NCBI GenBank assembly: GCA_965243025.1
Contig: CBDETY010000003.1
Span: 2,240,001 to 2,304,000 of the forward strand
From: Candidatus Latescibacterota bacterium
Lineage (GTDB): Bacteria; Latescibacterota; UBA2968; UBA8231
Length of the DNA stretch: 64,000 nucleotides
Direction of reading: 5' to 3'
The position numbers and the translations under genes are program-made. The notes under the pieces were generated by a model that worked only from the letters and a program-made list of their open reading frames with translations, did no database searches and was not told where the DNA came from. Below, in pieces: positions 25,822 through 39,330 of this stretch. Position 1 is the stretch's first letter, and every line of letters starts with the position of its first letter.

Positions 25822-26862
25822 TCAGTTCGGATCCTCTGGTTCGGAACCGCATGAGGACGACTGGCTGGCGGATACGATGACCTTGGGGGCCGTGCCGGGC
25901 ACCGGGTAAGGCTCAATTGTCCCCACACCGCAGGACCACCGGCTACCCGATGCGGCGACCTTGGGGGCTGTGCCGGGAACCCGGTAGTACTCAGCACCGG
26001 AGGGGTCCACCTTGTAGCCGAGATCGGCGAAGGCCTGTACGGTAACGGCGCTGAGGACCCGGCGGACACCGGGCTCTCTTCCGAGGGTCATGATCTCGTT
26101 GCCGAAAACGGACTTTCGCCAGTGGGAGTCCCGGCCGATCCCCATGTGCTCGACGGGTACGCCTTCCCTGTCGTACGTGCCTCCGGCCTCCTCAAACGCC
26201 TGAAGTGCCTGACGGCCGGTGAAATGGGTTTCTTCCCCGGGAGTACACCAGGATGGAAGGGCCAGCATGTTTTCCCAGGGCGGGCGGGACGCCCCAAAGC
26301 CCAACACATGGCCCAGCTCGTGAATCATGGCGTCTCTGCCCAGGTCGTAGCTTTCCTCGAACACCCGGTCATTCAGGACCACACCGCCAATGAGGGGGAC
26401 ACGAGTGTCGCCGCCCCGGGTCATTATAGCGCCACCGTAACCGTAAATTCCCTCGGGCAACGAAGCCAAGGTCACGTACACGAGCACGTCATCGAGGATT
26501 CCACCGAAGTAAATCCGCTCGAACCATTCATCCCACCCGCATTGCGGCCACCACTCCTCCTCATTCGTATCGAATGGGTATTCTTCGAAGTGAAAATCAA
26601 TCACGTCAGTCGTTATGATGCTCTCCCACGTGGCCGCCGCCTCCTCGATCACACGACGCTGTTTTGGTGAGAATTGATGCCCGGAGGTATGACGCTGCTT
26701 GGCGAAGGGTCCAGGATCGGACACGAAAACCAGGTCGATGTTGAATCCGGGCCTGGGAGAAGGATCGAACAGCTCAGGCTCAATGGAGTTTGTCGGTGTG
26801 CGGTTGCAACCGGCTGAAACCAGAATCACTGCGACGAACGACAGAATCAGAGCGGTTTTCAT
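25822..26862 (-). CDS. Leishmanolysin-like (M8) zinc metallopeptidase lipoprotein
   Basis: Lipobox SAGC; HELGHVLGF...SHW...EIMT motifs. Confidence 0.75.
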   Translation of the reverse strand: MKTALILSFVAVILVSAGCNRTPTNSIEPELFDPSPRPGFNIDLVFVSDPGPFAKQRHTSGHQFSPKQRRVIEEAAATWESIITTDVIDFHFEEYPFDTNEEEWWPQCGWDEWFERIYFGGILDDVLVYVTLASLPEGIYGYGGAIMTRGGDTRVPLIGGVVLNDRVFEESYDLGRDAMIHELGHVLGFGASRPPWENMLALPSWCTPGEETHFTGRQALQAFEEAGGTYDREGVPVEHMGIGRDSHWRKSVFGNEIMTLGREPGVRRVLSAVTVQAFADLGYKVDPSGAEYYRVPGTAPKVAASGSRWSCGVGTIEPYPVPGTAPKVIVSASQSSSCGSEPEDPN

Positions 26863-27271
26863 GGCAGCACCTCGTAAAGGCCGATCGAGCCCCGAGAAAG
26901 GATACGGAACTCCGGCTCATAAGCTTATGGTTCCGGTGATGGGACCGTGGCCTTGATCCGGCCCCAGGTTTCGGCCTCCACGGCCGTCTGACCCGGGCCC
27001 AGCAGGCACGGTATTCTCCAAGGAGACAAAGCTCCTTCTGAGCACCCCTCCATGGTCTTGTTGACTATTACGGTCTTTGGCCTTGCCCCGTGAACGATGC
27101 AAACATCACCTGCGAGTTCCCGAGTATTCGATCGATTCAACAATAGATCCCCCATCCTTGATCTCAACCCCCCTTGGAACCTCCATGGAAGGGGGACCGG
27201 TTTTACCGCAGTACAATCAATATAACCGGCTGATCCTGAGAACACCTGCGGTTATCGTCGGGGGACAAATG

Positions 27272-28378
27272 TTACCGGCAGCGCTCCTCGAACACCCTGA
27301 CCCCGGTGCGCACCGTCGTCAGGGCCAGCTCCACCCGCTGCGCGAACGCGCCGTACATCCCCATCTCGGTGCCGAACGCCATGCCGTGCCGGCGCGAGGC
27401 GTAGTCCATCAGGTTGAGGCCCTCCCCGCGCCTGGTGGCGTCGAGCCAGAAGACCGCCTGCTGCGAGCTCGTGAACCACTTCGACGGGGCGTCCCCCGCC
27501 TCGGCGAGGGTGACCCCGGTGGCGGCGATCTCGCCGATGATCTCGCGCGCCGCCCGCTCCTCCCAGCGCTGGCTCTCCGCGTCCGGCAGCGCCCGCGCCG
27601 ACAGCCAGAAGCGGTCCTCCATCAGCGAGGATTCGTGCAGGTCGAAGCTGATCCCGGGCTCGATCTCCTCCATGAGGCGGCGCGTCACCCGCGGCTCCAC
27701 CGGCGCCCAGGCGGTGTCGTGGAAGCGGTTGATGTGCAGGATCTCGCCGTCGAAGCCGATGATCAGGGTGTAGGCGCGCCCGAAGTCCCCGGTCCCTTCG
27801 ACCCCGGGCTCGCCGGGGTTCATGTACACGCGGCGGCCGTACACCGGCTCGAGGATCCCCGGCTCCTCCCTGAACAGCCGCTGCAGCCGATGGAAGAAGT
27901 AGATCTGCGTGCAGGCCCGTTCCGGCTGCGGGCGGCTCAGGGTGTATCCGTACTCGCCGATCAGCACGAGGAGGAGGTCGTCCTCCTCGAACAGGACGTC
28001 CCCCTGTTCCCGCAGCAGGGACTCGAGCTCGTCGTAGGAGCCGAACTCCGGTGGTTCCCCGAGCCCGAGGGAGAGGGCGTGGGCGAAGCCGTTGAGGCCG
28101 ACCGGGTCGCGGGTCGGGATCACGTACACGGCGTGCTCGGTGTCGAGCCGGTCGATCAGCTCGACCGCGGCGCTGACCCCGGCGTGCTCGGTCGAGTGGC
28201 TGCCCGCGGTGATGAAGACGGCCGGCGCCTTGTTTCCTCCGCCGCGGGCCGCTACCAGGGGGGAGCCGTCGAGGGTGTGGCCGAGGGTGCGCACCTGCCG
28301 GCTGCGGCGCGTCACCTCGTCGAGGAGTTCTTCGTATTTCCAGTAAACCTTGTTATATTCGGTCTTAAGTGGTTTCAT
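27272..28378 (-). CDS. M14-family carboxypeptidase/desuccinylase-like protein; integration target with an element-supplied N-terminus
   Basis: GSHSTE (HxxE), INRF and DLHE motifs; the att core lies in codons YWKY. Confidence 0.8.
   Translation of the reverse strand: MKPLKTEYNKVYWKYEELLDEVTRRSRQVRTLGHTLDGSPLVAARGGGNKAPAVFITAGSHSTEHAGVSAAVELIDRLDTEHAVYVIPTRDPVGLNGFAHALSLGLGEPPEFGSYDELESLLREQGDVLFEEDDLLLVLIGEYGYTLSRPQPERACTQIYFFHRLQRLFREEPGILEPVYGRRVYMNPGEPGVEGTGDFGRAYTLIIGFDGEILHINRFHDTAWAPVEPRVTRRLMEEIEPGISFDLHESSLMEDRFWLSARALPDAESQRWEERAAREIIGEIAATGVTLAEAGDAPSKWFTSSQQAVFWLDATRRGEGLNLMDYASRRHGMAFGTEMGMYGAFAQRVELALTTVRTGVRVFEERCR
28335..28345. repeat. attL core TATTTCCAGTA
   Basis: Identical to 38467-38477; sits at the GC boundary. 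Confidence 0.85.
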
Positions 28379-28458
28379 AGGGAAAAAGCTCCATTTAGGG
28401 TAGTCTCTAAGATAGAATATCTTTTGGGATTATCTATAAGAACAACCAAAGTTAAAAC

Positions 28459-29358
28459 ATGGAAAAATCCGAAATCCGCCGAATCGTCGAGGGTCGAATC
28501 TCCCCCCATACTCGCAAGCAGTACGGATACTGCCTTGCTCGAATTGGCCGGGAAATCGACACAGACGAGGGATTATGTGAATACATCGAAGAGAAATTCC
28601 GGGAAGGGAAAGCACCCGGCTCGATACAGAATATCCTCAATGCGGTTCGTTGGGATTGCGAGAGAAACGGGAAACCGTCTCCCGTAGGTCCCCTAACAAG
28701 AGCCCGAATAAAGGCGATGAGACGGGAAGGACGCAACCGAGGCAGAGGGCAGGCAAAGGGGGTTCAGTGGCAACAAGCTGCGGAGGTTGCGGCAATGGCG
28801 GAACGGGACACCTCTCTTGTCGGTTTGCGGGATGCTGCCATGATTGCCGTTCAATCCGATGGACTCTTACGGGTTAGTGAGGTGGCGAAAATCCGAGTCG
28901 AGGACGTGCAGTTTGGAGAGGACGGAACCGCCACCCTCCGTATTCCCTACTCGAAGACAGACCAAGACGGCAGAGATTGCCCGGAATTATTCCTTGGCTA
29001 TCCTACTGCCAGCCGAATACGTGCTTGGTTGGGTGCTTCAGGGATTCAGGAAGGACCATTGTTCCGAAGAGTCCATATCGGGGCAAAGCGAACCGGAACG
29101 AGAATCGCCGATGGAGAGATGAGTACAGAAGGAGTGCGGGGAATTCTCAAGCGACGTTGCAAGGCTGCCGGAATTGAGGGAATTTCTGGCCATTCCTTCA
29201 GGGTAGGAAGCGCGCAATCCTTGGCGGTTATGGGAGCGAGCTTGATTGAGATGCAACAGGCTGGCCGATGGACAAGCCCCGAGATGCCGTATCACTACAG
29301 CAAAAAACAGCTTGCCGCAAAAGGTGCCGTTGCCCGCCTCAGATACGGGCAGCAATAA
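28459..29358 (+). CDS. int: Tyrosine recombinase/integrase, Cre-like
   Basis: LRDAAMI..GLLRVSE, SKTDQ, GHSFRVG and GRW..MPYHY catalytic motifs. Confidence 0.92.
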   Translation: MEKSEIRRIVEGRISPHTRKQYGYCLARIGREIDTDEGLCEYIEEKFREGKAPGSIQNILNAVRWDCERNGKPSPVGPLTRARIKAMRREGRNRGRGQAKGVQWQQAAEVAAMAERDTSLVGLRDAAMIAVQSDGLLRVSEVAKIRVEDVQFGEDGTATLRIPYSKTDQDGRDCPELFLGYPTASRIRAWLGASGIQEGPLFRRVHIGAKRTGTRIADGEMSTEGVRGILKRRCKAAGIEGISGHSFRVGSAQSLAVMGASLIEMQQAGRWTSPEMPYHYSKKQLAAKGAVARLRYGQQ

Positions 29359-29393
29359 AGCCCCCGGGAGGCGATTTCCTGGGGGGCTTTATT
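29354..29393. terminator. Bidirectional intrinsic terminator
   Basis: AATAAAGCCCCC...GGGGGCTTTATT hairpin between convergent genes. Confidence 0.8.
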
Positions 29394-29421
29394 GTCTATT
29401 TTCTGGTTTTGTCTGGCCCTC

Positions 29422-29832
29422 TCAATTTCCTGCCATATCCAGAACACCAACAAAGGCCACTACTCCCAAGAAGCCATACCACAACCGACTCGACCTTTTC
29501 CTCTTTCTCGTCCCTTCCTTGTAGCTCATGGCGAAAGCTTTCTTGTATATTTCGCTTTCGCCTTCCTGGGATAGTTGGAGCTTTTGGGGAACATTATCTC
29601 CCCGTGTCATCCACCACTGGGGGATGACCCAGATTGTTCCTCCCACGATTCCGGATGCAAATCCCGCACCCACAGCCACCAGCCTGGTTTTCGCCATGCT
29701 GGCCTCATGTGCGGCCACCTCTCCTTCAATTTTTCCGTCAATGGCCCCTTTCTTGGTCACGACCACGACGGTATCCTGAGTAGCCCCCACGGAGCCCGCC
29801 AACAGGCATACGAACAGCAGCAATTTTCCCAT
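29422..29832 (-). CDS. Accessory membrane/exported protein
   Basis: AGGAGAGG RBS; signal-like MGKLLLFVCLLAGSVGA; two further hydrophobic segments. Confidence 0.65.
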   Translation of the reverse strand: MGKLLLFVCLLAGSVGATQDTVVVVTKKGAIDGKIEGEVAAHEASMAKTRLVAVGAGFASGIVGGTIWVIPQWWMTRGDNVPQKLQLSQEGESEIYKKAFAMSYKEGTRKRKRSSRLWYGFLGVVAFVGVLDMAGN

Positions 29833-29945
29833 GTCCCTCTCCTTTTCGATGGGTGAGGTGGGAAAGTAATGAGAATCTAACCGATGATGCCAGGGCGGGC
29901 GCAATAGCTCGGGGATGAAGGCGGCGGCTATTGGGAGCTATTTCC

Positions 29946-31025
29946 TTACTCCAGCCCCGCCAATCTCAAAGCTTCGTCAAGCTCGACACCACTACCGGCC
30001 AGGGAAGCGGCTGCCCTCGCCTTCGACATAACGTCAGAGGCAAACAGCCTGTCGAAAGACAGGGTTACCGGAGTTTCCAGCTTCTCGGATAGTTCCGCCT
30101 CGACGGATCGCGCAACCGGGCTGACGCTACTGTGCAAAAACTGCCTCCAAGCCTCTCGCCTTGCTGCCCCGTCTCCACGTTCTGAGACAAGCGACAGAGG
30201 CACCCCGCAAGCCTGCAACAGACTGTGGGCAACGTCTTCCCGTAGTTCTCTGAGGCTGTCGGGAGGGTCTGCGCCAATTCTGACGGGTACGAAGTCTTTC
30301 CGGGGAGCGGTGTTCATCCCCTCCCCAAATCCCCCGGCTGTAGTCTCGACAAGGGCGGTTTTTCCCTTCAGGGTCTTCAGGGTCTGCCGCAATTCCCCGT
30401 ATGCGTCGAATTCTTCCCCGTCTACCTCTGCCGGTTCCGGATCGCTTGGAACCGGGAGTAAATGGCCAACAATTCCGCCAGTTTCTTCGCTCAGACGCTT
30501 TTCGAGGTTCCCGAGTAGGGTAGAGGTAAGGGAGGCTCGCTTCCAGGGAGAAGCGCCAAATTCGGGCAATTCTGCCTGATAACTCCATCGGCAATGAATC
30601 ACTTGGTCTGCCGGTGCTCGTTGGTAGGTTAAGGTCGATGAAGGTCCGTACACCGTACACCGGTACCGCCAACTGTTGCGGCTGGCTTTCCCGGTTACGG
30701 AAAAGTCACCAACCGGCAGCAATTCCAGCTTCCCCCCCTCGACTTGGATCACTGCCAACCCTTCGCCTCGAAGTACCAACTCTTGCCCGATCCATCCGAG
30801 AAACTCAGGAGTCAAAGCCTGTGTAAGGGGTGTAGCAGGATCTACAGCCGCTGAGGAGAAGGCCCGTCTCCACAATCCCGCAGCCGTTTCTATCGCAGCC
30901 ACACCCCTTACAAGCTGGCTGTCGTCTGAATCTGCCTGAGATTCGACGGCATTTAGCAGAATGTTGGTGAACCCGTCTACCTCGGTAGATCGCTTCTCAG
31001 TCTTTGTAAATGGCCAAAATTTCAC
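29946..31025 (-). CDS. Phage portal protein (HK97-like)
   Basis: MKFWPFTKTEKRS N-terminus, LVLRGEG, VIHCR, GASP, ACGVP..L, and E.ELSEKL. Confidence 0.85.
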   Translation of the reverse strand: MKFWPFTKTEKRSTEVDGFTNILLNAVESQADSDDSQLVRGVAAIETAAGLWRRAFSSAAVDPATPLTQALTPEFLGWIGQELVLRGEGLAVIQVEGGKLELLPVGDFSVTGKASRNSWRYRCTVYGPSSTLTYQRAPADQVIHCRWSYQAELPEFGASPWKRASLTSTLLGNLEKRLSEETGGIVGHLLPVPSDPEPAEVDGEEFDAYGELRQTLKTLKGKTALVETTAGGFGEGMNTAPRKDFVPVRIGADPPDSLRELREDVAHSLLQACGVPLSLVSERGDGAARREAWRQFLHSSVSPVARSVEAELSEKLETPVTLSFDRLFASDVMSKARAAASLAGSGVELDEALRLAGLE

Positions 31026-31034
31026 CGGTAAAAA

Positions 31035-31394
31035 TTACTCCGGAAGAGTGGTAATACTGTCTGACTTGCAGTGCAACCGTTGCCACCTTTTTCGATCCAA
31101 AGCCTCGATTCGGGCAATTACGAGGGTCTCCCCGTCATGTCGTATCCAATCGTCTGTTTTGTACCGCTTGGAATACCGTACGGTAAAGACTGCCTCGTTT
31201 TCTTCGCCTCTGTGGGTCAAGAATCCCGTAGCGGTGACAAGGTTCGATTCTGCTCCCGGATCGCGTCTGCACCACACCTTAGAGAAGGTTTCCGGGGTCC
31301 GTCTGCCCTCGGGGATTGGTCCGTGTTCGAGGATTGAATCGAGGGCAAAGCGCAGCCTCTGGCGTGTAGTTTTCGCAAGATCAGGCATGTTCAA
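31035..31394 (-). CDS. Head closure / head-tail adaptor protein
   Basis: FTVRY...DWIRHDGETLVIARIE...LHC pattern; position in the head module. Confidence 0.65.
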   Translation of the reverse strand: MNMPDLAKTTRQRLRFALDSILEHGPIPEGRRTPETFSKVWCRRDPGAESNLVTATGFLTHRGEENEAVFTVRYSKRYKTDDWIRHDGETLVIARIEALDRKRWQRLHCKSDSITTLPE

Positions 31395-31689
31395 TTACGG
31401 CTGCCGTATGCTTTCGCCAGGTAGACAACAGCCCCTTTGCCCCGCTGTTTGTGAAGGCGGTTGAATAGTTGGGGTGTTGGCTGCCGTCGATGTCGTAGAG
31501 ATACGAGACAAAGCGTACCGTTGCCTCTTTCTTTGTCGCCATTGGTGCTTGTGGTGCGTACCGTTCGATTTCCGCATTGGCAACCCCGCAAAGGTCCGTC
31601 AACCGCTGTTCAATGGCTGCCTCAAGCGTCTCTGTTGTGTCTGCGATGATGCGAAGGGCAACCCCTATTTTCTGCACGTCTACAGCCAT
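31381..31689 (-). CDS. Head-tail connector protein (gp6-like)
   Basis: LRI...A.AEIERY..AP..KEATVRFVSYLYD...LLSTWR pattern. Confidence 0.7.
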   Translation of the reverse strand: MAVDVQKIGVALRIIADTTETLEAAIEQRLTDLCGVANAEIERYAPQAPMATKKEATVRFVSYLYDIDGSQHPNYSTAFTNSGAKGLLSTWRKHTAAVIEHA

Positions 31690-32591
31690 AGCAACCGCTC
31701 CGCTTTGTGTCGCCGTCTCGGGAGGTTGTGGTATTCCGGTTCTCCCCAACCTTCGGAAGCGTCTGTACTCCCGATTACCAGTGCTCGTAAGATGGCAGCC
31801 GAGTACGCCATTGTTACCCCTTGGATAATCCCCTCTGACAATCCCCTGTCCAAGTGCGGCCGTACGTAAACCGGGGCAGCTTCGATCTTGTCGAGAAGGT
31901 CGTCTACCATTCCTTCCGGTACGTCGATCTCAACCGAAAGACCGTTTTCGAGTCGCTTCCCTCGTACTGTTCCCCGTGAAGTACTGGCCAATGGGCTGCC
32001 GTAGCTGGACAATACCGCCAGTACTTCCCGCTCGCTGAGGGATTGAAACATTGTGTCAATTGCTTCAGGGGTGAAGGTGGCATACCTACATTCGGGACCA
32101 CTGCACCGGCAGCCAAGGGAGGTATCTTGGGGCACGAAAGCCCGTATCATTGGACCTTGTTTCGCTCGTGCCTCCACTGTGGAAGCTGGATAAGCCGATC
32201 TATCCACAACACCCAACCCGGAAAGGTTGGCAAGGTCGATTACTCTCGTGCCGTCTTCGTAGTGTTCGGAAATCACTTCAAATTCCGCTGATAATCCGCG
32301 AAGGACGCCAGAACTAACGAGGGTAAGGGTATCTCTTGCCTCTGAGGTTTCAGGCAGTACAGCCTCCATTTTCAAGCTTTCCGGTCCGTCTCTGAGAATC
32401 AGCCCGGCACCGGTACGGGCAAGGGGTCTGTCCCGCTGATGTTGACGGTTCAAAACAACATCGCTACAGAGAAGGGAGCCGGGAGCGAACCTTTCAGGCT
32501 GACCACCAACAACAGCAATGTCGCCGTAGTTGATGACTGTACCGAGAAGTCTTTTCCCGTCTGCCCTTATCTCTGTAAAACGTGTTTCCAT
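31680..32591 (-). CDS. HK97-family prohead protease with a second degenerate protease-like domain
   Basis: ERFAPGS, QHQRDRPLART, GLSAEF and VVDRSAYP motifs. Confidence 0.85.
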   Translation of the reverse strand: METRFTEIRADGKRLLGTVINYGDIAVVGGQPERFAPGSLLCSDVVLNRQHQRDRPLARTGAGLILRDGPESLKMEAVLPETSEARDTLTLVSSGVLRGLSAEFEVISEHYEDGTRVIDLANLSGLGVVDRSAYPASTVEARAKQGPMIRAFVPQDTSLGCRCSGPECRYATFTPEAIDTMFQSLSEREVLAVLSSYGSPLASTSRGTVRGKRLENGLSVEIDVPEGMVDDLLDKIEAAPVYVRPHLDRGLSEGIIQGVTMAYSAAILRALVIGSTDASEGWGEPEYHNLPRRRHKAERLLWL

Positions 32592-33812
32592 CTATGCGGC
32601 AACCTGAAATTTCAACAGCTCCCAACCGTCTGCCCTTGGCACGTCGAAGGCAAACAGAACGTGCAAGGTGAGCCCGACAATTCCCTTGCTGGCATCGGTG
32701 TACGGATCGCGGATCAATCGCGGAGCCTGCCAGATTGGAGCGACGGCGGAGCCCATCTTTCGACAGGCAAGGGCAAGCTGGATCTTGCTGGCTACGTCTG
32801 GAACATGGGCAGAAACCCGGCAACCTCCCGAGATCCGCTTGACGTGTTCCGCTGCGGTTGTGTCGCTGTTGGTTCCCCCGAACTTGCTTGACATATGAGC
32901 GTTTGTCTTGGCGCCAATCAGCAACTTGATATCGCCGTTTTCGAGTGCGTACTTGCCGTCTACACTGTCGGCAATGGCTGCGATATAGTCCGACCTTCCT
33001 GCCTCTGCGGTTGGATCAGATGGAGCCGTAAGGGGTCCAGAGGACGAATCGAAGAATCCCGACACGTGTTGATCTGTCCCTTCTCCCGCGAGGATTTCCT
33101 TATCCATCTCTTGCGCGATTGCCCCGGAAAGGTCGTCTCGAAGGGCAGCCTCCATACCCTGAAATACTGCCGCGTCTTCGATGGCGAAGGTATACCGGGC
33201 AGTCATTCTCTTCGGAGAAAGCGTCTTCACGCTCCACGTCGCAGCCGTCGAATCGTGAGCGGCTGCCTTCTCTTTCAATGCGGGAGTGTTCCCGCCAGTG
33301 AGTACGGGATACTGACGCTCGCCAACACCAACAGACGGAAACCGAACGCCAGCCCACAGTGCCGCGCCTTTGGCGAACACCCTTGAAAGAATCGGGTCTT
33401 GAGCGGCTGGCACATCGGCGGGAGCGGTTGTGTTGGCATCGGCTCGCCGCTCTACCGGTGCGATAGCCTCCCACGGAACCGAGAAATCAGGCAGGTTGTG
33501 CTCTTTCTGCCATTCGTGTTCTGCTCCGTCTGCAATCCGTTCTTCCGTTGCGGCTGCCCCGAGGTACCGACGTAATTCCAGTTTCCCGGCAAGTTCCCGT
33601 TTCTCGGTTTCTTCCCGGCTGCCTTCCTCTGCCGTCTCGGTTCCGTCAAGTACGATTGCTGCCCGTACTTCGGTCTCAAGTTCCTGAAGTCGCTTTGTCA
33701 GCCCGTCGAGGGTCTGCCGTTCTTCTGTACTGAGGGATTCCTTAGCAAGTAACGAGCCTGCCTTTTCGCGGTGCTCGCTTTGTTCGAGTTGGAGTTTCTG
33801 AAGCTTTGTCAT
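32592..33812 (-). CDS. HK97-fold major capsid protein with N-terminal coiled-coil (delta) domain
   Basis: Helical first ~110 aa; LSPKRM, L..AIA.EMDKEIL.G and IRDPYT..G.V motifs. Confidence 0.88.
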   Translation of the reverse strand: MTKLQKLQLEQSEHREKAGSLLAKESLSTEERQTLDGLTKRLQELETEVRAAIVLDGTETAEEGSREETEKRELAGKLELRRYLGAAATEERIADGAEHEWQKEHNLPDFSVPWEAIAPVERRADANTTAPADVPAAQDPILSRVFAKGAALWAGVRFPSVGVGERQYPVLTGGNTPALKEKAAAHDSTAATWSVKTLSPKRMTARYTFAIEDAAVFQGMEAALRDDLSGAIAQEMDKEILAGEGTDQHVSGFFDSSSGPLTAPSDPTAEAGRSDYIAAIADSVDGKYALENGDIKLLIGAKTNAHMSSKFGGTNSDTTAAEHVKRISGGCRVSAHVPDVASKIQLALACRKMGSAVAPIWQAPRLIRDPYTDASKGIVGLTLHVLFAFDVPRADGWELLKFQVAA

Positions 33813-34113
33813 TGGTTTTCTCCTTCAAGAGATTTCGTATGTATGCCTTGAAAAATTTCACCTCAAGCAACCCGTGCCGCTCGTGAATTTGGGTATGGCA
33901 CTGGCAGCAAAGGCTGACAAGGTTGGTCAGTTTGTAACCGATTTCCTCAGCAACAACCGGAGAGAGTCTCTTTCCCCTGTTGGGAAGGGGGATACGGTGA
34001 TGTACGTGCAATTTTCCACGTCGATAGCAACTCTTGCACTCGTACCCGTCTCGCTCAAGTGCCTGTTTTCGGACTCGCTGCCATCTGGCGGTTTTGTAGA
34101 GGTTAGAAATCAC
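33742..34113 (-). CDS. HNH endonuclease (HK97 gp74-like terminase partner)
   Basis: RWQRVRKQALERDGYECKSC..VHH...NLVSLCCQCH. Confidence 0.9.
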   Translation of the reverse strand: MISNLYKTARWQRVRKQALERDGYECKSCYRRGKLHVHHRIPLPNRGKRLSPVVAEEIGYKLTNLVSLCCQCHTQIHERHGLLEVKFFKAYIRNLLKEKTNDKASETPTRTKRAPRKGRLVTC

Positions 34114-34144
34114 GGGTTTCCCTATCTCCTATTTTTGGAGAATC

Positions 34145-35743
34145 CTACACCGCAGCCGCTCGCAAGGGTCTCCGCAGACGGGTTTTCGTCATCAGAGGTT
34201 CAGCGATACCCGCAGCAATCACGGCGGCTGACAGGAGGTCGATACGGCCCCTTGACGTTGATTTATCGAGACCGGGGTTTCCGTTGCCATCTCTTCGAAT
34301 CGCGGAATTGGAAACCGCCGTTGCGAAACTCAACGATTCCCTCAGCTTCAATTTTTTGCCGATGAAAAGGCGTTGTAAGGCTCGAACATCTCTCCCGCCA
34401 TCCTTCCCGGCACCAACACGGCGAAACTCGTATGGCCATCGAAGTTCCGCATTTTCCAGGAAATCCTTTACCTCAGCATCCTTGTAGCCATCCGCAGCCA
34501 GCCGATACACGGTACAACCCTTCAGATCGGCAGCCACGTCTCCAAGAAACTGGGATACTGGCGTAACCCTTCCCGGATAGGTGCAAAGTTCTCCCCCTTG
34601 AATCATCATATCATATCTGGCGCCATCTCGTTTCCCTCGCTCGATGGGAGAAGGATTGTCCCCGAAAGCCATCCACGTTTCGCACCTTCCCGTTGCTGGC
34701 CATATGGCGAACACGGCACTTGCCGCCGTCGCTTCCCCCATATCCAACCCAAGGCACACCACACCTTGACGGGGAGGAAGTTCGTCAACCAGACACCCCC
34801 GATAGTCTGAAAGCGTGAAGATCATTTCGCGGGTTGGCGATTGGGGGAGGTTTAAATCGAAGGCGAGGAAGGTTGATCTATCCGAAGGGGTAGCCTCGAC
34901 TCTGGCTGCTTCGTCTCGCATCCATTCAGCGGATTTGATCCCGCAAGGGATTCCAGGGTTACCGGCTGCCCATACCTCGGGACTGTGTATGTCAACGTCC
35001 TCCCCGTCTGGCGCGTACAAGTGTACGGCGGTTGTAGGGAGGTTCTGACGCTCAAGCAGCTCCTCAAGGAGTGGAGACTCCCCCCGGATAGATAGCGCAA
35101 GGAAACGCCCGTTGCGGGCGCTTGTGGCGGTTCTGAGTCCCGCGATCAATTCACGGTCTCGCTCCGTCATCAAACCCAATTCGTCAGCAATCGAAAAATC
35201 GAATCCGCTGGAATGTCCCGCTGATTTGTCGGCACTCAGAAACTCCGCCGTCGATCCGTTCTCCGTGTTTACCCATCCCGGAGCGGGAGACTTGCGGAAA
35301 TCCAGATCATCGAGGTTCGAAGCCTTCGCGATCTCTTCCATTTGCCGCAGAAGCTCAGCCGCTTTCTCTCGTGTTACCGAGACCGTACCGATCCGCAGCC
35401 CCGCCCGTTTCAAGGGTCCCGCGAGGAGTGCCAGACATAGCACCGCGACAATTGCAGACTTGGCGTTTTTTCGTCCGAGACAGAGAAGGGATTCCCGGTG
35501 TGTCAGTGCATCGCGTATGAAGCTGATACCGTACTCGGGCAACTCCATAGGCTGCCCCGCGAGAGGATGGCCAGGGGGTACCTTCAGGCAATCTCGCGAC
35601 CATTCCGCTACGGCTTGGGCAGGGTCTGCCGGTGTTGGCGGTAAAGGTTGTGCCTTCTGTTTCTTCAGCTTCTTACGAGCACGGCACTTGCGTTGTCGTT
35701 CTCTCGCGGCTAACCGTTCTGCTGTCTTGTCTTTGTATGGCAT
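34145..35743 (-). CDS. terL: Terminase large subunit
   Basis: Walker A GRKNAKS, Walker B SIADE, WAAGNP, nuclease LGLDMG and RIDLLSA motifs. Confidence 0.9.
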   Translation of the reverse strand: MPYKDKTAERLAARERQRKCRARKKLKKQKAQPLPPTPADPAQAVAEWSRDCLKVPPGHPLAGQPMELPEYGISFIRDALTHRESLLCLGRKNAKSAIVAVLCLALLAGPLKRAGLRIGTVSVTREKAAELLRQMEEIAKASNLDDLDFRKSPAPGWVNTENGSTAEFLSADKSAGHSSGFDFSIADELGLMTERDRELIAGLRTATSARNGRFLALSIRGESPLLEELLERQNLPTTAVHLYAPDGEDVDIHSPEVWAAGNPGIPCGIKSAEWMRDEAARVEATPSDRSTFLAFDLNLPQSPTREMIFTLSDYRGCLVDELPPRQGVVCLGLDMGEATAASAVFAIWPATGRCETWMAFGDNPSPIERGKRDGARYDMMIQGGELCTYPGRVTPVSQFLGDVAADLKGCTVYRLAADGYKDAEVKDFLENAELRWPYEFRRVGAGKDGGRDVRALQRLFIGKKLKLRESLSFATAVSNSAIRRDGNGNPGLDKSTSRGRIDLLSAAVIAAGIAEPLMTKTRLRRPLRAAAV

Positions 35744-35859
35744 AAGTCAATTTGGCACGTCACACCCGGTCACGGCGTGACACCATTCGAGCACAGATCA
35801 GGAACCCCCACGGTCCCTGGTCCCTCTTTTCCAATTTGCTACAGGGTCCCGAAGGGGTC

Positions 35860-36715
35860 GTACTGTCATGTTGACATCTATCTGCGAGATTCTCGAAGAT
35901 GGAATTGGGCAGGATCGCTTAGGGATTGGGTATCCAGCCTGCGCTTGAATGCCACTGCAAAGAATCTCAATCATCAGGGGAAGTGCCGAGACGAAGTTTC
36001 TCGCAAATCCCCTCTCGAAAACAACTATCCACGACTATTGGAGAGGAGGGACATTGCCTCTCTGGATTGCTGTTTCTGACGCTTTTGTACCGTCGCCTAT
36101 TACCATATACGCGCACGATTAAAGTACTACCATATATTTTCTGTATCTTGTTCATTGTCAATGAGTTTTTCATTGTCAACGTAACCTAAGTACTTAAATA
36201 ACTACCTATATGTACAACGCATCTTTCCGTACTACCCCCCAAGTACGGACGAGCGGTACCCGACAACCGCGCGCGTACGCGTGTGCGCGGTAATGGTAAT
36301 AGGCGAGGGCAAAATACGGGGCAACGCTCCACTTTTCGGGGGAGCCTTGTTCGACAGTACCTGAAACTTGCCCGATTCGGGGCAAAAACAGCTCTACAAT
36401 CGCTTATCGCCTTCATACCCTACTTCCGACATCCTACCACATTTGAGCACCGTTACAAGCCCTCAAATTTGCCCCGATTCGGGCAAATGATTTTTGGCAG
36501 GTTTTGAGATTTTATCTGCGAGATTCTCGCAGATAGCCAGCCCGGTACCGTCTGTTTACCGATTCTCCAAAAGTAGTAGACAGGAAAAAACATTTTTCAA
36601 GCCCGGTTCCTCTACCCGGCTGTGGCAACCGGGCAAGGGAAGCTGGCGGATTACCCTTCGGGGCTGCCAGCTTCCCAACTACCTCCAAGATTGCCCCGGA
36701 AAGCCCTCAAATCTC
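35860..36715. promoter_or_regulatory. Divergent control region or putative origin with repeated palindromes
   Basis: TATCTGCGAGATTCTCG(A/C)AGAT twice, TTGCCC(C)GATTCGGG(G)CAA twice, TTCATTGTCAA twice, AT-rich tract, GC-rich hairpins. Confidence 0.6.
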
Positions 36716-36719
36716 GCAT

Positions 36720-37418
36720 ATGGCAGCCAAACGAACCGCACCCCATACGCACACCCTCGAATACACTGGCGATTACGTAGAGTGCCGAGATTGCCCCTTT
36801 TTGCTGCACCTTGGGGAGATCGGAATACCGGAGCGGTTCGAGGTTATGTCTTGGCCAAACGAAGAAATGGCGAGACTTCGAGAAGCGGAGTCGAGATACT
36901 GGGGAAGACCCTTCAGTTATCGGATTTCCGGGATGGACGAATACGGAAAGCCCGTCAACTCTGAACAGGGAACCGAAGCGAAAGAGGAAGAGCGGGAAGG
37001 ATTTCCAGACCGTCCACCCGGCAGAATTGGAAAATGGCGGTTGTTGAAGTGCCGAACCTTTCACACTTGCAGCATTTGCGAAGGGGAGATTTTCGAGGGG
37101 ACCTTGTGCTATCGGACGGCGGGAACAACCGGGGGAAGAGGTGGGAAATACCGCAAGCGGTATGCCTGTCTCGATTGCACTGACGAAATCACACCGCAAG
37201 CGGCAGAGCGGGAAACGGATCCTGACGTAATAGAGCGGCTACGGAAGGCACTGGCGGAAGGCAAGGGAGAGGCTCGAAGGCTCAAACTGCCTCGGCCCTG
37301 CCAGCTATGCGGAATGATCCTGCACCGGGGACAGAATGGGTTACGATGGCGTACCGCGGCGTACGAGAATGGGAAGCGTCGAGGGTTGGACCTATTCGTG
37401 CATCCCGAGTGCTCGTAA
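36720..37418 (+). CDS. Cys-rich putative zinc-finger protein
   Basis: CRDC, CSIC..CLDC and CQLC..HPEC clusters; the only long ORF here. Confidence 0.6.
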   Translation: MAAKRTAPHTHTLEYTGDYVECRDCPFLLHLGEIGIPERFEVMSWPNEEMARLREAESRYWGRPFSYRISGMDEYGKPVNSEQGTEAKEEEREGFPDRPPGRIGKWRLLKCRTFHTCSICEGEIFEGTLCYRTAGTTGGRGGKYRKRYACLDCTDEITPQAAERETDPDVIERLRKALAEGKGEARRLKLPRPCQLCGMILHRGQNGLRWRTAAYENGKRRGLDLFVHPECS

Positions 37419-37560
37419 ACTTTACCGAATTTTGTGGTTTTTTTTAACAAAAACTACCTTTTCGTAGTTTCATAACCTTCACAAAAACAATCAGTTGCGA
37501 AGCTGTTTTTTCAATGCTCTAAACCCAATAAAAACACGAGTTTATACATAGCTTGTACTT

Positions 37561-37589
37561 TTGACAGAACCAACCTAATGCCCTACCTT
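37561..37589 (+). promoter_or_regulatory. Sigma70-like promoter
   Basis: TTGACA-17 bp-TACCTT preceded by an AT-rich tract. Confidence 0.55.
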
Positions 37590-37674
37590 TATCTCTATGT
37601 CTGGTGCATTCGGCACTGGGCACGGAAACTCTCGACTACTTTGCGTAGTCGAGCAACGAAAGGATAAAGCAAAA

Positions 37675-38049
37675 ATGAGGAATTGTGTGATCTACGCAGA
37701 CGAGGCGGAGAAAGATAGGTACTTCTTCGACCGGGAACTCCACAAACAAGAGGACTTCGACATGGGATGCGTTGTCGCTGGCGTCTTCCAGCCACCGACT
37801 AACGCATCGTTTGGCGCCAAAGATGGGGTTACTCACTTGGTCATATCAGAACGTTATTACAGTGCTCATGATGTGATGAAGGGTGAGGAAATCAAACCCT
37901 TCAAGGGAAAGGGAGTTGATACCGTCGAGCTTCTTTGGATCGCAGAGGATTTCAAGCATATTTCGACACGAGAGCCCCGCCTCACTTCCGCTGAACTCCT
38001 CAAACGCACTGCCGATAATCAACCCCCAAGTTCGATACCAAAGTGGTGA
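37675..38049 (+). CDS. Hypothetical protein
   Basis: AAGGA RBS before ATG 37675; downstream of the promoter. Confidence 0.55.
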   Translation: MRNCVIYADEAEKDRYFFDRELHKQEDFDMGCVVAGVFQPPTNASFGAKDGVTHLVISERYYSAHDVMKGEEIKPFKGKGVDTVELLWIAEDFKHISTREPRLTSAELLKRTADNQPPSSIPKW

Positions 38050-38073
38050 GGAACCTTTTTTTGGAGACAGTCA

Positions 38074-38259
38074 ATGAATGAATTCAAGGTAGGGGATGTT
38101 GTTCGTCTTCGTAGCGGGGGACCCAAAATGACCGTAGACACTTCTCAGCCTGGGGACATCAACCCCAATGAAATACCCACAACATGGATTGAGAGAGGAA
38201 CCGCCAAAAGAGGAAATTTTGCCCCCGAACTTCTGAAACTCGTAGACGAAGAAGACTGA
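38074..38259 (+). CDS. YodC/DUF2158 family small protein
   Basis: FKVGDVVRLRSGGPKMTV signature; GGAG RBS. Confidence 0.85.
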   Translation: MNEFKVGDVVRLRSGGPKMTVDTSQPGDINPNEIPTTWIERGTAKRGNFAPELLKLVDEED

Positions 38260-38275
38260 GAAACCCCGCCAAGCG

Positions 38276-38309
38276 AAAGCCCCGGAATCACTCGATTCTG
38301 GGGCTTTTT
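38276..38309 (+). terminator. Intrinsic terminator
   Basis: AAAGCCCCGGAATC-loop-GATTCTGGGGCTTTTT. Confidence 0.8.
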
Positions 38310-38466
38310 CATGTATTTTCCCCAATCCTTAGCGCCACCTTTACGAGGTTGAGCACTCATGTAGGTAACTGCTCGTTTGGATTGAAGTGCTCAAATGAGC
38401 ACAAACTGGCTATTTCCATGAAAATATCGTAACCTATTGTTTTTATTGAAATTAACGAATACTTGC

Positions 38467-38477
38467 TATTTCCAGTA
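38467..38477. repeat. attR core TATTTCCAGTA
   Basis: Identical to attL; adjacent to the displaced host start (minus strand GAGGATACC ATG CGA ATC TAC TGG AAA). Confidence 0.85.
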
Positions 38478-38601
38478 GATTCGCATGGTATCCTCAAGTA
38501 GTGTGGGAAACAGGAAAAACAGAAACCCGGAGTAGTACTCCCTTCTTGACAAACGTCTGCATTGCAGTCATATCAACAAGGAAGATCAAGGAGAGTGCCA
38601 A

Positions 38602-38967
38602 GTGGAATGGAGCAGCTTCATCGCGCCCGGCGTTGTCGGAGGGTTGCTCGGGCTTTACCTGAAGAGCATCGGCCAGCGAATCGATGACCTGAAAACTTCC
38701 ACGGCACAGCAATTCGAAGTGATAGACAAGCGGTTTGACGAGACAAGCAAGCGGTTTGACGAAACAAGCAAGCGATTTGACGAAACAAGCAGGCGACTCG
38801 ATGCCTTGCAGATCGAGGTAACCTCGCTGGGCAAGGGAGTGGCTCGAATAGAGGGACGGCTCGATCCCTACGACCGCACAACGAGCAGCCCACACTCGGT
38901 AAAAGAGGAACGGATGAAGACAGCTTCCCCCCCATCCTCCCAGGAACCGCCGGGTCAGGGCCAGTAA
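38602..38967 (+). CDS. Small membrane-anchored coiled-coil protein
   Basis: N-terminal transmembrane segment, KRFDETS x3, ARIEGRL; AAGGAG RBS. Confidence 0.7.
   Translation: MEWSSFIAPGVVGGLLGLYLKSIGQRIDDLKTSTAQQFEVIDKRFDETSKRFDETSKRFDETSRRLDALQIEVTSLGKGVARIEGRLDPYDRTTSSPHSVKEERMKTASPPSSQEPPGQGQ
38728..38790 (+). repeat. 21-bp tandem repeat x3 (heptad KRFDETS)
   Basis: AAGCG(G/A)TTTGACGA(G/A)ACAAGC repeated three times. Confidence 0.9.
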
Positions 38968-39188
38968 TGGATTGGAGCAGCTTCATCGCGCCTGGGGTTG
39001 TCGGGGCTTTGCTCGGGCTTTATTTGAAGAGCATCAGTCAGCGTATCGATGACGGAACCAAGCGACTTGACGAGATAGGCAGGCGAATCGATGCCGTGCA
39101 GACCGAAGTAACGTCCCAGGGCAAGGCTCTGGCGCGAATCGAAGGCCGGCTCGATCCATACGACCTGGAGAAGAACCGCAGCGAGTAG
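38967..39188 (+). CDS. Paralog of the preceding coiled-coil protein
   Basis: MDWSSFIAPGVVGALLGLYLKSI...ARIEGRLDPYD; TAATG stop/start coupling. Confidence 0.7.
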   Translation: MDWSSFIAPGVVGALLGLYLKSISQRIDDGTKRLDEIGRRIDAVQTEVTSQGKALARIEGRLDPYDLEKNRSE

Positions 39189-39214
39189 CCAATCCCCTGC
39201 GGGACACCCAAACC

Positions 39215-39250
39215 AGCCCCCGGAATCGGTCCTGTTCCGGGGGCTTTTGT
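39215..39250 (+). terminator. Intrinsic terminator
   Basis: AGCCCCCGGAA...TTCCGGGGGCTTTT. Confidence 0.75.
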
Positions 39251-39330
39251 ATTCCGGAAACACAACCGGAAGACAGGTACAGGGGATTCACCAAACCGCC
39301 GCCACCCGGATCCGGCCAGGGCCGAGCCTG

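What the first reader, a model, noticed from the sequence alone, without database searches (positions are those of the whole stretch)
28300..38500. Integration inside a peptidase gene swaps its N-terminus and promoter
Seen: beyond attR the minus strand reads GAGGA-TACC-ATG CGA ATC TAC TGG AAA TAG, i.e. MRIYWK-stop (38486-38466). Joining the cores gives in-frame MRIYWKYEELLDEV. In the integrated state the element supplies ATG 28378 (MKPLKTEYNKVYWKYEELL) with GGAG 10 nt upstream, back-to-back with the integrase start. Inference: the element either complements the gene it disrupts, placing it under its own AT-rich promoter, or acts as an excision-controlled switch like active lysogeny.
Basis: partly seen in the sequence, partly recalled or inferred. 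Interest (0 to 1): 0.82.

Follow-up and report, generated by a model that had tools for sequence, protein, structure and literature searches.

The report
Mobile element swaps a gene's start
A 10-kb integrase-plus-capsid element sits inside the first codons of a zinc-carboxypeptidase-like gene and supplies a new start codon; the insertion is confirmed, but this trick is already known from other mobile elements.

Summary
A 10,121-bp lower-GC element (28346-38466) is flanked by an exact 11-nt repeat, TATTTCCAGTA, which occurs only twice in the window. It lies inside codons 3-6 of an M14-like peptidase gene. Two same-genus genomes have the uninterrupted site and start MNIYWKYEELLDEV and MKIYWKYEELLDEV. 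A metagenome contig joins 28334 to 38467 with no differences over 697 nt. Of the 120 best homologues, 105 start one to four residues before the conserved I-Y, and none starts MKPLKTEYNKV.

The element carries an integrase, portal, protease, capsid, HNH and large terminase genes. No tail or lysis gene was recognised, so it resembles a cf-PICI. It supplies an in-frame ATG, 11 codons and a GGAG at a spacing this genome uses. Two related elements that insert upstream of another gene's start codon lack this ATG and GGAG.

Expression of the hybrid gene and an element promoter are not shown. I found no evidence for an excision switch. Replacement of a gene's 5' end by an integrating element is documented for dusA islands, so this is a new member of a known kind.

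The parts
27272..28378 (-). Hybrid gene (368 aa) for an M14-like zinc-carboxypeptidase-fold protein. Codons 1-11 come from the element, and the rest is host.
   Evidence: ORF. Weak Pfam M14 hit below cutoff (E 0.0037). AlphaFold2 pLDDT 94.1. Foldseek best matches are M14 metallocarboxypeptidases, E 3.8e-10. H61 and E64 (HxxE) are invariant in 70 sequences.
28335..28345 (.). attL copy of the 11-nt core TATTTCCAGTA. On the minus strand it covers codons Y-W-K and the first two bases of the next Y codon.
   Evidence: (D18). The joint has 11 letters that fit both sides.
28346..28378 (-). Element-supplied 5' coding end: ATG plus 10 codons (MKPLKTEYNKV). It replaces the native M-R-I.
   Evidence: It is absent from all 120 homologues. 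Residues 1-5 have pLDDT below 50.
28389..28392 (-). GGAG, a Shine-Dalgarno-like motif starting at -14 from the hybrid ATG.
   Evidence: Genome-wide GGAG counts are 60 at -14, peak at 154 and 162 at -12 and -11, and are about 20 in the background.
28363..28376 (.). Block TCTTAAGTGGTTTC, conserved (TCTTWAGTGRTTYC) next to the core in three related elements. It is probably a recombinase or regulatory site, and here it also encodes K-P-L-K-T of the hybrid.
   Evidence: Alignments.
28459..29358 (+). Tyrosine integrase (299 aa), divergent from the hybrid gene.
   Evidence: PF00589 E 3.9e-13; phrog_1 integrase.
29422..29904 (-). Predicted membrane protein of unknown function, last gene of the minus-strand operon.
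   Evidence: ORF. No family in Pfam-independent scans: PHROGs, NCBIfam and PADLOC gave nothing. 'Membrane' is my reading of the sequence.
29946..31025 (-). Portal protein.
   Evidence: PF04860 E 3e-12.
31035..31394 (-). Head closure / connector protein.
   Evidence: phrog_25 head closure Hc1, E 1.4e-4.
31381..31749 (-). 122-aa ORF of unknown function between the protease and connector genes (a possible second connector; inference from position only).
   Evidence: No family.
31680..32591 (-). Prohead serine protease (S78).
   Evidence: PF04586 E 5.8e-12.
32592..33812 (-). HK97-type major capsid protein.
   Evidence: PF05065 E 8.7e-7. It is the only copy found in the genome with this query.
33742..34113 (-). 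HNH endonuclease.
   Evidence: PF01844 E 5.7e-6.
34145..35743 (-). Large terminase subunit.
   Evidence: PF20441 E 1.2e-7 and PF03354 E 0.0029. It is the only copy found in the genome with this query.
35880..36534 (.). About 1 kb of mostly non-coding control region. It is bounded by two copies of the 21-nt palindrome ATCTGCGAGATTCTCGCAGAT (35880-35900 and 36514-36534), which are probably operators.
   Evidence: (D12, I4) and 70: the only sites in the window, 0.01 expected by chance. No Rfam match.
36720..38259 (+). Three plus-strand genes of unknown function: 232 aa rich in Cys pairs, 150 aa, and 61 aa (phrog_3261).
   Evidence: No regulator, primase or defence family was recognised.
38467..38477 (.). 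attR copy of the 11-nt core.
38466..38495 (-). Stranded native 5' end: GAGGA (38495-38491), ATG (38486-38484), then MRIYWK and a TAG that comes from the element's last bases.
   Evidence: It is homologous to the uninterrupted starts in G001 and G002.

Best explanation
A 10.1-kb integrative element (tyrosine integrase plus a complete HK97-type head and packaging module, with no recognisable tail or lysis genes) has recombined through an 11-nt core (TATTTCCAGTA) that lies in codons 3-6 of a host gene for an M14-like zinc carboxypeptidase.

Integration moves the native promoter, ribosome-binding site and first three codons 10.1 kb away, where they now head a 6-codon stub.

The integrase-proximal arm of the element supplies a GGAG, an ATG and ten further in-frame codons. 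The gene therefore stays as an intact ORF whose product differs only by an 8-residue longer, probably floppy N-terminal tail and a conservative I-to-V change.

I infer that this arm is an evolved 'target-restoring' cassette of the kind described for dusA-specific islands. It would keep the host gene translatable, probably from a promoter in or near the 80-nt spacer shared with the divergent integrase gene.

Shown: the insertion, its exact junctions, the native N-terminus, and the intact hybrid ORF with a Shine-Dalgarno-like motif (I put this part at about 0.97).
Inferred: that the hybrid is transcribed, translated and active. The confidence given is for the whole statement, including this inference.
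For: Insertion and junctions:
- GC step between the cores.
- The core occurs only twice in the window.
- attL and attR align to the uninterrupted sites of two congeners, one on each side of the core.
- An element-free contig in run X6 joins 28334 to 38467 with 0 differences over 697 nt. Run X5, from a second study, has contigs that bridge attL (28230-29661) and attR (37497-39067) with 0 differences.

Native N-terminus:
- 105 of 120 homologues start 1-4 residues before the conserved I-[YF].
- 15 of 19 relatives' loci agree (14 by the script, one more, G002, read by eye).

Restoration:
- ATG 28378 is the first start after an upstream stop, and the only start that keeps the first conserved helix, residues 15-25.
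- In 200,000 shuffles of the 113-nt spacer, an in-frame ATG before a stop arose in 18%, and an ATG with a Shine-Dalgarno-like motif in 0.5%.
- The genome does use such motifs. GGAG, GAGG and AGGA pile up at -15 to -8 on the sense strand only.
- Two related elements in G001 and G002 insert 50 nt upstream of a glycosyltransferase ATG. They share the block TCTTWAGTGRTTYC next to the core but have CAG or CCC where this element has CAT, and they have no GGAG.
- Residues 1-5 of the hybrid have pLDDT below 50, and residues from about 11 onwards are about 98.

Against: - No promoter was recognised. There were 0 sigma-70-type sites in 28200-28700. The best relaxed match is TTTTAA-17-GATAAT, 8 of 12. 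A Bacteroidota-type TAnnTTTG motif in the spacer means little, because that motif is not enriched upstream of genes in this genome (39 sense against 29 antisense).
- No RNA contig covers the hybrid junction. The one RNA library laid (X20) holds the element-free form.
- The GGAG at -14 is off the genomic peak at -12 and -11.
- An in-frame ATG alone is not rare: 18% by chance.
- The empty allele is identical over 697 nt, so the insertion is recent. Intactness of the ORF therefore says nothing about selection on the hybrid.
- The comparative argument rests on three elements only, and two of them are close kin.
Confidence: 0.6

Rival explanations
1. Insertional silencing with a fortuitous ORF. The element landed in a dispensable gene, the in-frame ATG and GGAG are chance, the gene has lost its promoter, and it is effectively off in lysogens.
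For: An in-frame ATG before a stop arises in 18% of shuffles, and any start codon in 36%. No promoter was recognised. The gene is not universal: no match in 8 of 41 related genomes, and the G002 orthologue carries an in-frame TAG. There is no expression evidence for the hybrid.
Against: An ATG with a suitably placed Shine-Dalgarno-like motif arises in 0.5% of shuffles, and this genome uses such motifs. Relatives at an intergenic att site lack both at the homologous position. The swap spares the whole predicted fold.
Confidence: 0.27
2. Excision-controlled switch (active lysogeny). The element keeps the native gene off or altered, and regulated excision without lysis restores the native promoter and N-terminus when the enzyme is needed.
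For: Both states exist in nature with precise junctions. The integrase is intact. The native promoter and start are preserved next to attR.
Against: The empty-site contigs come from runs with next to no cover of the element: X6 depth is 0 in 19 of the 20 bins between 28755 and 38225 (0.17 in 35971-36421), and X20 has only low cover in three bins. They are therefore element-free strains, not excision in lysogens. The run that probably gave the assembly (X1) shows only the integrated form, although contigs drop rare variants. No excisionase was recognised. An in-frame replacement start is unnecessary for a disruption switch.
Confidence: 0.07
3. The element is a decayed prophage remnant that can no longer move. 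The N-terminal swap is then a frozen accident, not part of a working life cycle. (This concerns the element's state and can hold together with the first rival.)
For: No tail, lysis, small terminase, regulator or replication gene was recognised. No homologous capsid or terminase was found elsewhere in the genome with these queries.
Against: All recognised genes are intact ORFs. The junctions are exact, and the empty allele is identical over 697 nt, so the insertion is recent. The same element is in the same site in a run of a second study (X5). A sister element of the same size and gene order (portal 82%, capsid and protease about 75% identical by tblastx) is bounded by its own repeat in G002. 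Its site is occupied by another relative in G001 and empty in G000. This points to a family that is still mobile.
Confidence: 0.15

Closest known systems
dusA-specific genomic islands and prophages with DusA-associated integrases (Farrugia et al. 2015, PMC4482086; passages read)
   Same: A tyrosine-integrase element inserts inside the 5' end of a protein-coding gene and replaces that end with its own sequence, so the ORF stays open. New upstream sequence takes the place of the native promoter. Excision restores the wild-type gene.
   Different: The target gene differs (an M14-like peptidase, not dusA), as does the host phylum (source names on homologues point to Latescibacterota and sponge metagenomes). 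The element here is small and encodes only a head module. Only 3 native residues are replaced, and they precede the fold; in DusA a beta-strand is replaced. Whether the integrases are related was not tested. The supplementary figure with the dusA promoters could not be seen.
SXT/R391 integrative conjugative elements in the 5' end of prfC (PMC4344509 and PMC5122569, passages read; Hochhut & Waldor 1999 not read)
   Same: [quoted passage not shown] I recall that the element provides a new promoter and N-terminal codons for prfC.
   Different: SXT/R391 are conjugative elements of about 100 kb in Gammaproteobacteria. The detail about the new promoter and N-terminus rests on my memory, not on a passage read here.
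[quoted passage not shown] 2023, PMC10085698; passages read)
   Same: A size of about 10 kb. An integrase sits at one end. The element has its own HNH, large terminase, portal, prohead protease, capsid and head-tail connector genes. No tail or holin genes were recognised.
   Different: No AlpA/MerR-type regulator, primase-replicase or small terminase was recognised, so at most about 7 of the 11 core components are present. The gene order is unusual (terminase, HNH, capsid, protease, connectors, portal). cfPICIs are reported in Proteobacteria and Firmicutes. No helper phage is known.
Active lysogeny, for example the Listeria comK prophage (recalled, no paper read here)
   Same: A prophage sits inside a host ORF, and precise excision would restore the native gene.
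   Different: In that case the gene is split and non-functional while the prophage is integrated. Here an in-frame replacement start keeps the ORF whole, and no regulated excision was seen.

Membership tests
Integrative elements that target a gene's 5' end and replace it (dusA-island / SXT-prfC type) | Tyrosine integrase gene next to one attachment site | tested here: met
   PF00589 E 3.9e-13. The integrase ATG is 113 nt from the attL core.
Integrative elements that target a gene's 5' end and replace it (dusA-island / SXT-prfC type) | Short direct repeat at both ends, and an uninterrupted attB in relatives that joins at that repeat | tested here: met
   The 11-nt core occurs only twice in the window. 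There are empty sites in G001 and G002. Contigs of runs X6 and X20 have the joint 28334 to 38467 with 11 letters shared.
Integrative elements that target a gene's 5' end and replace it (dusA-island / SXT-prfC type) | attB lies inside the 5' coding region of the target gene | tested here: met
   The core covers codons 4-6 and part of 7 of the native M-[NKR]-I-Y-W-K-Y. The native start is supported by 105 of 120 homologues.
Integrative elements that target a gene's 5' end and replace it (dusA-island / SXT-prfC type) | Element sequence restores an open frame with a new start | tested here: met
   ATG 28378 plus 10 codons are in frame, with a GGAG at -14.
Integrative elements that target a gene's 5' end and replace it (dusA-island / SXT-prfC type) | The hybrid gene is expressed from an element promoter and is functional | not testable with these tools
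   No consensus promoter was found. No RNA contig covers the junction. Only a structure prediction suggests tolerance.
Integrative elements that target a gene's 5' end and replace it (dusA-island / SXT-prfC type) | Integrase belongs to the DusA-associated or SXT integrase clade | not tested
   No comparison with those integrases was made. The resemblance claimed here is in mechanism, not in descent.
cfPICI (SatelliteFinder definition, PMC10085698) | Integrase, HNH, large terminase, portal, protease, capsid | tested here: met
   Pfam hits for all six.
cfPICI (SatelliteFinder definition, PMC10085698) | [quoted passage not shown] | tested here: inconclusive
   One hit, phrog_25 head closure, E 1.4e-4. 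The neighbouring 122-aa ORF has no family.
cfPICI (SatelliteFinder definition, PMC10085698) | AlpA/MerR-type regulator, primase-replicase, small terminase | tested here: not met
   No such family appeared in Pfam, PHROGs or NCBIfam for the ORFs scanned. The Atlas gave only zinc-ribbon-like leads below 0.9. The SatelliteFinder profiles themselves were not run.
cfPICI (SatelliteFinder definition, PMC10085698) | No tail and no holin genes | tested here: met
   No ORF of 40 aa or more that I scanned hit a tail or lysis family. The 160-aa membrane protein remains unassigned.
cfPICI (SatelliteFinder definition, PMC10085698) | Induction and tail supply by a helper phage | not testable with these tools
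   The host is uncultured, and no helper was identified.
Active-lysogeny regulatory prophages | The target gene is non-functional while the element is integrated | tested here: inconclusive
   The ORF is intact with a new start, but the native promoter is removed and expression is unknown.
Active-lysogeny regulatory prophages | Regulated, non-lytic excision in the lysogen | not testable with these tools
   Only contigs were available. The empty sites seen belong to element-free populations.
Peptidase family M14 | Carboxypeptidase fold with an HxxE...H zinc site | tested here: met
   Foldseek gave 113 PDB matches at E <= 0.001, led by putative metallopeptidases and carboxypeptidases. H61, E64 and several later His residues are invariant.
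Peptidase family M14 | Passes Pfam PF00246 gathering score | tested here: not met
   17.4 bits against a cutoff of 21.6. No PDB sequence match with the family profile. I therefore call it 'M14-like'.

The most novel reading that the evidence does not exclude
This family of about 10-kb head-only elements in uncultured sponge-associated bacteria may use its integrase-proximal arm as a portable 5' gene end (promoter, ribosome-binding site and, where needed, start codon) that is tuned to each attachment site. The member that lands inside an ORF has evolved an ATG and a GGAG within an otherwise conserved arm motif. Its relatives, which land 50 nt upstream of a start codon, have not. The element would then not merely repair its target but take over the regulation of a host gene, coupling it to the divergent integrase control region. 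It would also be a first satellite-like, capsid-forming element outside Proteobacteria and Firmicutes.
Probability: 0.2. Interest if true: 0.6.

Novelty: new member of a known kind. Interest (0 to 1): 0.4.

Why it matters
This is a clean natural example, with both alleles documented, of a mobile element that inserts inside a gene yet keeps the gene open by bringing its own start codon. It shows that the dusA/prfC-type strategy also occurs in a little-studied, uncultured lineage, on a very small head-only element. The three-element comparison (an intragenic att with ATG and GGAG against an intergenic att without them) gives a testable hint that such replacement ends are adapted to the target. 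For genome annotation, it warns that the N-terminus and promoter of a gene next to an integrase may be foreign.

Tried and rejected
Searches that found little:
- Close relatives of the element: the search for related loci with the terminase in genome contigs gave 0 relatives, and with the capsid protein in viral contigs gave 0.
- The integrase in metagenome contigs gave 17 loci, the best 57% identical over part of the protein and none near-identical. No second, diverged element at this att site was found, so conservation of the replacement N-terminus could not be measured.
- The integrase in 132 genomes of the class matched 20 genomes at E <= 1e-20, best non-self identity 53%.
- I looked upstream of 19 paralogous integrases for a divergent host ORF starting in low-GC DNA. 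No clear repeat of the architecture appeared with that crude script, so I make no general claim from it.

Promoters:
- The sigma-70 scan found nothing in 28200-28700 or in 35700-38700.
- I considered a Bacteroidota-type TAnnTTTG motif (TAACTTTG in the spacer). I rejected it because the motif is not enriched or oriented upstream of 2,453 approximate gene starts (39 sense, 29 antisense).

Other negatives:
- No tRNA or tmRNA at the att sites.
- No Rfam family in 27000-39500 at E <= 0.1.
- No defence family in six element ORFs.
- The Atlas search for the 232-aa protein gave only sub-0.9 leads.
- The family profile found no solved structure by sequence.

Read laying:
- There is no RNA cover of the hybrid start, and no excision joint in the integrated-form runs X1 and X5. 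These runs are contigs, so neither absence is evidence.
- The X20 contig across the empty site comes from an RNA library, which may contain DNA. It is only a weak hint that the native gene is transcribed.

Literature:
- The search 'Latescibacter' + 'prophage' + 'sponge' found 0 papers. That is the only search behind any statement that such elements are unreported in this lineage.

Tools and files that were closed:
- The look-up of encoding contigs was stated closed and was not called.
Supplementary Figure S4 of PMC4482086 (promoters and the replacement strand of dusA) could bear on the comparison.

Full report
**What is in the sequence.**
The minus-strand ORF 27272..28378 encodes a 368-aa protein. 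Between 28346 and 38466 the GC content falls from about 0.70 to about 0.55. This stretch is bracketed by the exact 11-mer TATTTCCAGTA, at 28335-28345 and 38467-38477. These are the only two matches in the 64-kb window even with one mismatch allowed; 0.11 are expected. The similarity extends to 17 of 21 nt (family D18).

Left of the first copy, the gene continues ...TAC GAA GAA CTC CTC GAC GAG GTG. In the integrated state the frame is opened by ATG 28378 (MKPLKTEYNKV-YWKYEELL). A GGAG lies 10 nt upstream, and the integrase ATG (28459) lies 80 nt away on the other strand.

**The insertion is real and its junction is exact.**
The peptidase has matches in 33 of 41 related genomes. The two same-genus genomes carry it uninterrupted:
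- G001 reads ...GTATTTCCAGTAGATGTTCATGGTATCCTCAAGC, which gives MNIYWKYEELLDEV.
- G002 reads ...GTAGATTTTCATGGTATCCTCGAGC, which gives MKIYWKYEELLDEV.

Both are followed by the same intergenic DNA and small coiled-coil genes that lie right of attR in the window. A four-way alignment shows attL matching these sites up to the core and attR matching from the core onwards.

Public runs give the same answer:
- Run X6 has a 697-nt contig that joins 28334 to 38467 with no difference from the window, and 11 letters fit on both sides.
- The RNA-library run X20 has a 379-nt contig with the same joint from a slightly different strain (14 differences).
- Run X5, from another study, has contigs that bridge attL and attR of the integrated form with no differences.
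- X6 has next to no cover of the element: depth is 0 in 19 of the 20 bins between 28755 and 38225 and 0.17 in the other (35971-36421). X20 has only low cover in three bins. The empty sites are therefore element-free strains, not excision events.

No tRNA lies at either end.

**The native N-terminus.**
- Of 19 relatives' loci, 14 show M-x(1-2)-[IMP]-[YF]-x-x-Y-x-x-L-L behind an ATG (I in 12 of the 14; L011 has M and L016 has P). One more I read by eye. Two have the motif behind a probable TTG or GTG. Two were not resolved by my script.
- Of the 120 best database homologues, 105 have the motif 1-4 residues from the start, and none starts with the element's peptide.
- The best hit (91% identical, 360 aa) starts MNIYWKYEELLDEV and is 8 residues shorter than the hybrid, as expected.

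**What the target gene is.**
- Pfam gives only a sub-threshold M14 hit. NCBIfam gives nothing. A profile of 70 family members finds no solved structure by sequence.
- An AlphaFold2 model built on that alignment is confident (pLDDT 94.1, pTM 0.93). Its best Foldseek matches are M14 metallocarboxypeptidases and 'putative metallopeptidases' (E 3.8e-10 and weaker; 113 matches at E <= 0.001).
- H61 and E64 (HxxE) are invariant.

I call it an M14-like zinc carboxypeptidase-fold protein. In the model, residues 1-5 have pLDDT below 50, and the first ten average 60. The first helix is residues 15-25. The swapped part therefore precedes the fold.

**What the element is.**
On the minus strand, in order of transcription, the genes are:
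1. large terminase
2. HNH endonuclease
3. HK97-type capsid protein
4. S78 prohead protease
5. a 122-aa unknown
6. a head-closure protein
7. portal
8. a small membrane protein

The integrase is on the plus strand at the left end, and three unknown genes are on the plus strand at the right end. About 1 kb of mostly non-coding DNA lies between the two arms. It is bounded by two copies of a 21-nt palindrome found nowhere else in the window.

No tail, lysis, small-terminase, regulator, replication or defence family was recognised. Capsid and terminase have no second copy in the genome with these queries.

The architecture is that of a capsid-forming PICI as defined in PMC10085698 (passages read). 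Only about 7 of the 11 core components are recognisable, so I do not file it as a member.

**Relatives of the element.**
The terminase matches 6 of 168 genomes of the phylum at E <= 1e-10.

G002 holds a 9.6-kb element with the same gene order:
- By tblastx, the portal is 82% identical and the protease and capsid about 75% identical. The terminase is only 41% and the integrase 48% identical.
- It is bounded by its own 33-nt imperfect repeat.
- It lies 50 nt upstream of the ATG of a glycosyltransferase-like gene and about 100 nt from a divergent gene.
- The window's own genome has that site empty, and G001 has a further relative in it.

This is therefore a small family of modular, apparently still mobile elements whose integrase-proximal arm abuts the 5' end of a host gene.

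**Is the replacement start more than chance?**
- In 200,000 mononucleotide shuffles of the 113-nt arm, an in-frame ATG before the first stop arose in 18%. An ATG with GGAG, GAGG or AGGA 5-16 nt upstream arose in 0.5%.
- The genome does use Shine-Dalgarno pairing. At 3,527 approximate gene starts, GGAG counts peak at -12 and -11 (154 and 162). The count is 60 at -14, the position here, against about 20 in the background. The antisense strand shows no peak.
- The three related elements share the block TCTTWAGTGRTTYC about 18 nt from the core. The window's element continues CAT (ATG on the coding strand) and has CTCC (GGAG) 10 nt further on. The two elements that insert upstream of an intact start codon have CAG or CCC and no GGAG.
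- The element's codon next to the core is GTT (Val) where the host has ATC (Ile).

These points favour an adapted target-restoring arm, but they rest on three elements only.

**What is not shown.**
- No promoter was recognised for the hybrid gene. A TAnnTTTG match in the spacer is not meaningful in this genome.
- No RNA data cover the hybrid start.
- The empty allele is identical over 697 nt, so the insertion is recent and ORF intactness says nothing about selection.
- No excisionase was recognised, and no excision junction was seen in lysogen runs. Those runs are contigs, so this is not evidence of absence.

**Comparison with what is known.**
- Replacement of the 5' end of a target gene by the integrating element, with new putative promoter elements and a structurally suitable new N-terminus, is described for dusA-specific islands and prophages (PMC4482086, passages read).
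[quoted passage not shown] That they bring a new promoter and N-terminus is my recollection of Hochhut & Waldor 1999, which I did not read.

The mechanism is therefore known. What is new here is the target gene, the lineage (source names on homologues and runs point to Latescibacterota-like bacteria of sponges), and the carrier, a 10-kb head-only element.

One literature search for such elements in this lineage found nothing.

**Verdict.**
- Observation: confirmed.
- Interpretation: partly supported. The N-terminus swap is shown, complementation is likely, the promoter is unproven, and the switch model is unsupported.
- Novelty: new member of a known kind.
- Interest: about 0.4.

Noticed in passing
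L055 4175-13794 (G002); L076 and L077: A sister 9.6-kb element with the same gene order is bounded by a 33-nt imperfect repeat. It lies 50 nt upstream of a glycosyltransferase-like gene's ATG in G002. The same site holds another relative in G001 and is empty in the window's genome. The head module is 75-82% identical to the window's element, but the terminase and integrase are only 41-48% identical, so modules have been exchanged.
   Followed up: partly
L056 (G117 contig C9, 22 kb) and contig C12: A 10.4-kb unit is repeated head to tail (99.2-99.7% identical copies). It carries portal, terminase (43% identical to the window's), capsid, protease, a GH108 lysozyme with a peptidoglycan-binding domain, and an 854-aa unknown protein. 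It has no integrase and no host flanks in the stretch read. It may be a circular or concatemeric mini-phage.
   Followed up: partly
window 35880-35900 and 36514-36534: Two copies of the 21-nt palindrome ATCTGCGAGATTCTCGCAGAT lie 634 nt apart. They flank the non-coding region between the terminase operon and the plus-strand genes and look like operators for an unidentified repressor.
   Followed up: partly
window 38393-38418 and 38449-38474: A 26-nt direct repeat (77% identical) lies just inside attR. The inner copy repeats GCTATTTCCA of the core region. It could be a second recombinase-binding site or a relic core.
   Followed up: no
window 38602-39188: Two paralogous small genes for membrane-anchored coiled-coil proteins lie next to attR in host DNA. 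The first contains three 21-nt tandem repeats (KRFDETS). G001 and G002 have a differently composed pair at the same place.
   Followed up: no
L003 (G002 orthologue of the peptidase): The G002 copy of the peptidase gene is reported with one in-frame TAG, so it may be a pseudogene or a sequencing error there.
   Followed up: no
window 39330-40000: Read laying shows very high summed contig depth and many short joints from all four runs over the short-chain dehydrogenase-like gene. This is the signature of a conserved domain shared by many organisms in the metagenomes, not a feature of this locus.
   Followed up: no
whole genome (G000): Shine-Dalgarno motifs are strongly and strand-specifically enriched 8-15 nt upstream of approximate gene starts, whereas the Bacteroidota-type TAnnTTTG promoter motif is not enriched. 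The integrase family has many paralogues per genome in this genus (12 matches in G001).
   Followed up: partly
window 25822-26862: The gene downstream of the peptidase encodes a lipoprotein-like zinc metalloprotease (HELGH motif; weak NF038122 hit) in a stretch of lower GC (0.55-0.60) than the surrounding host DNA.
   Followed up: no
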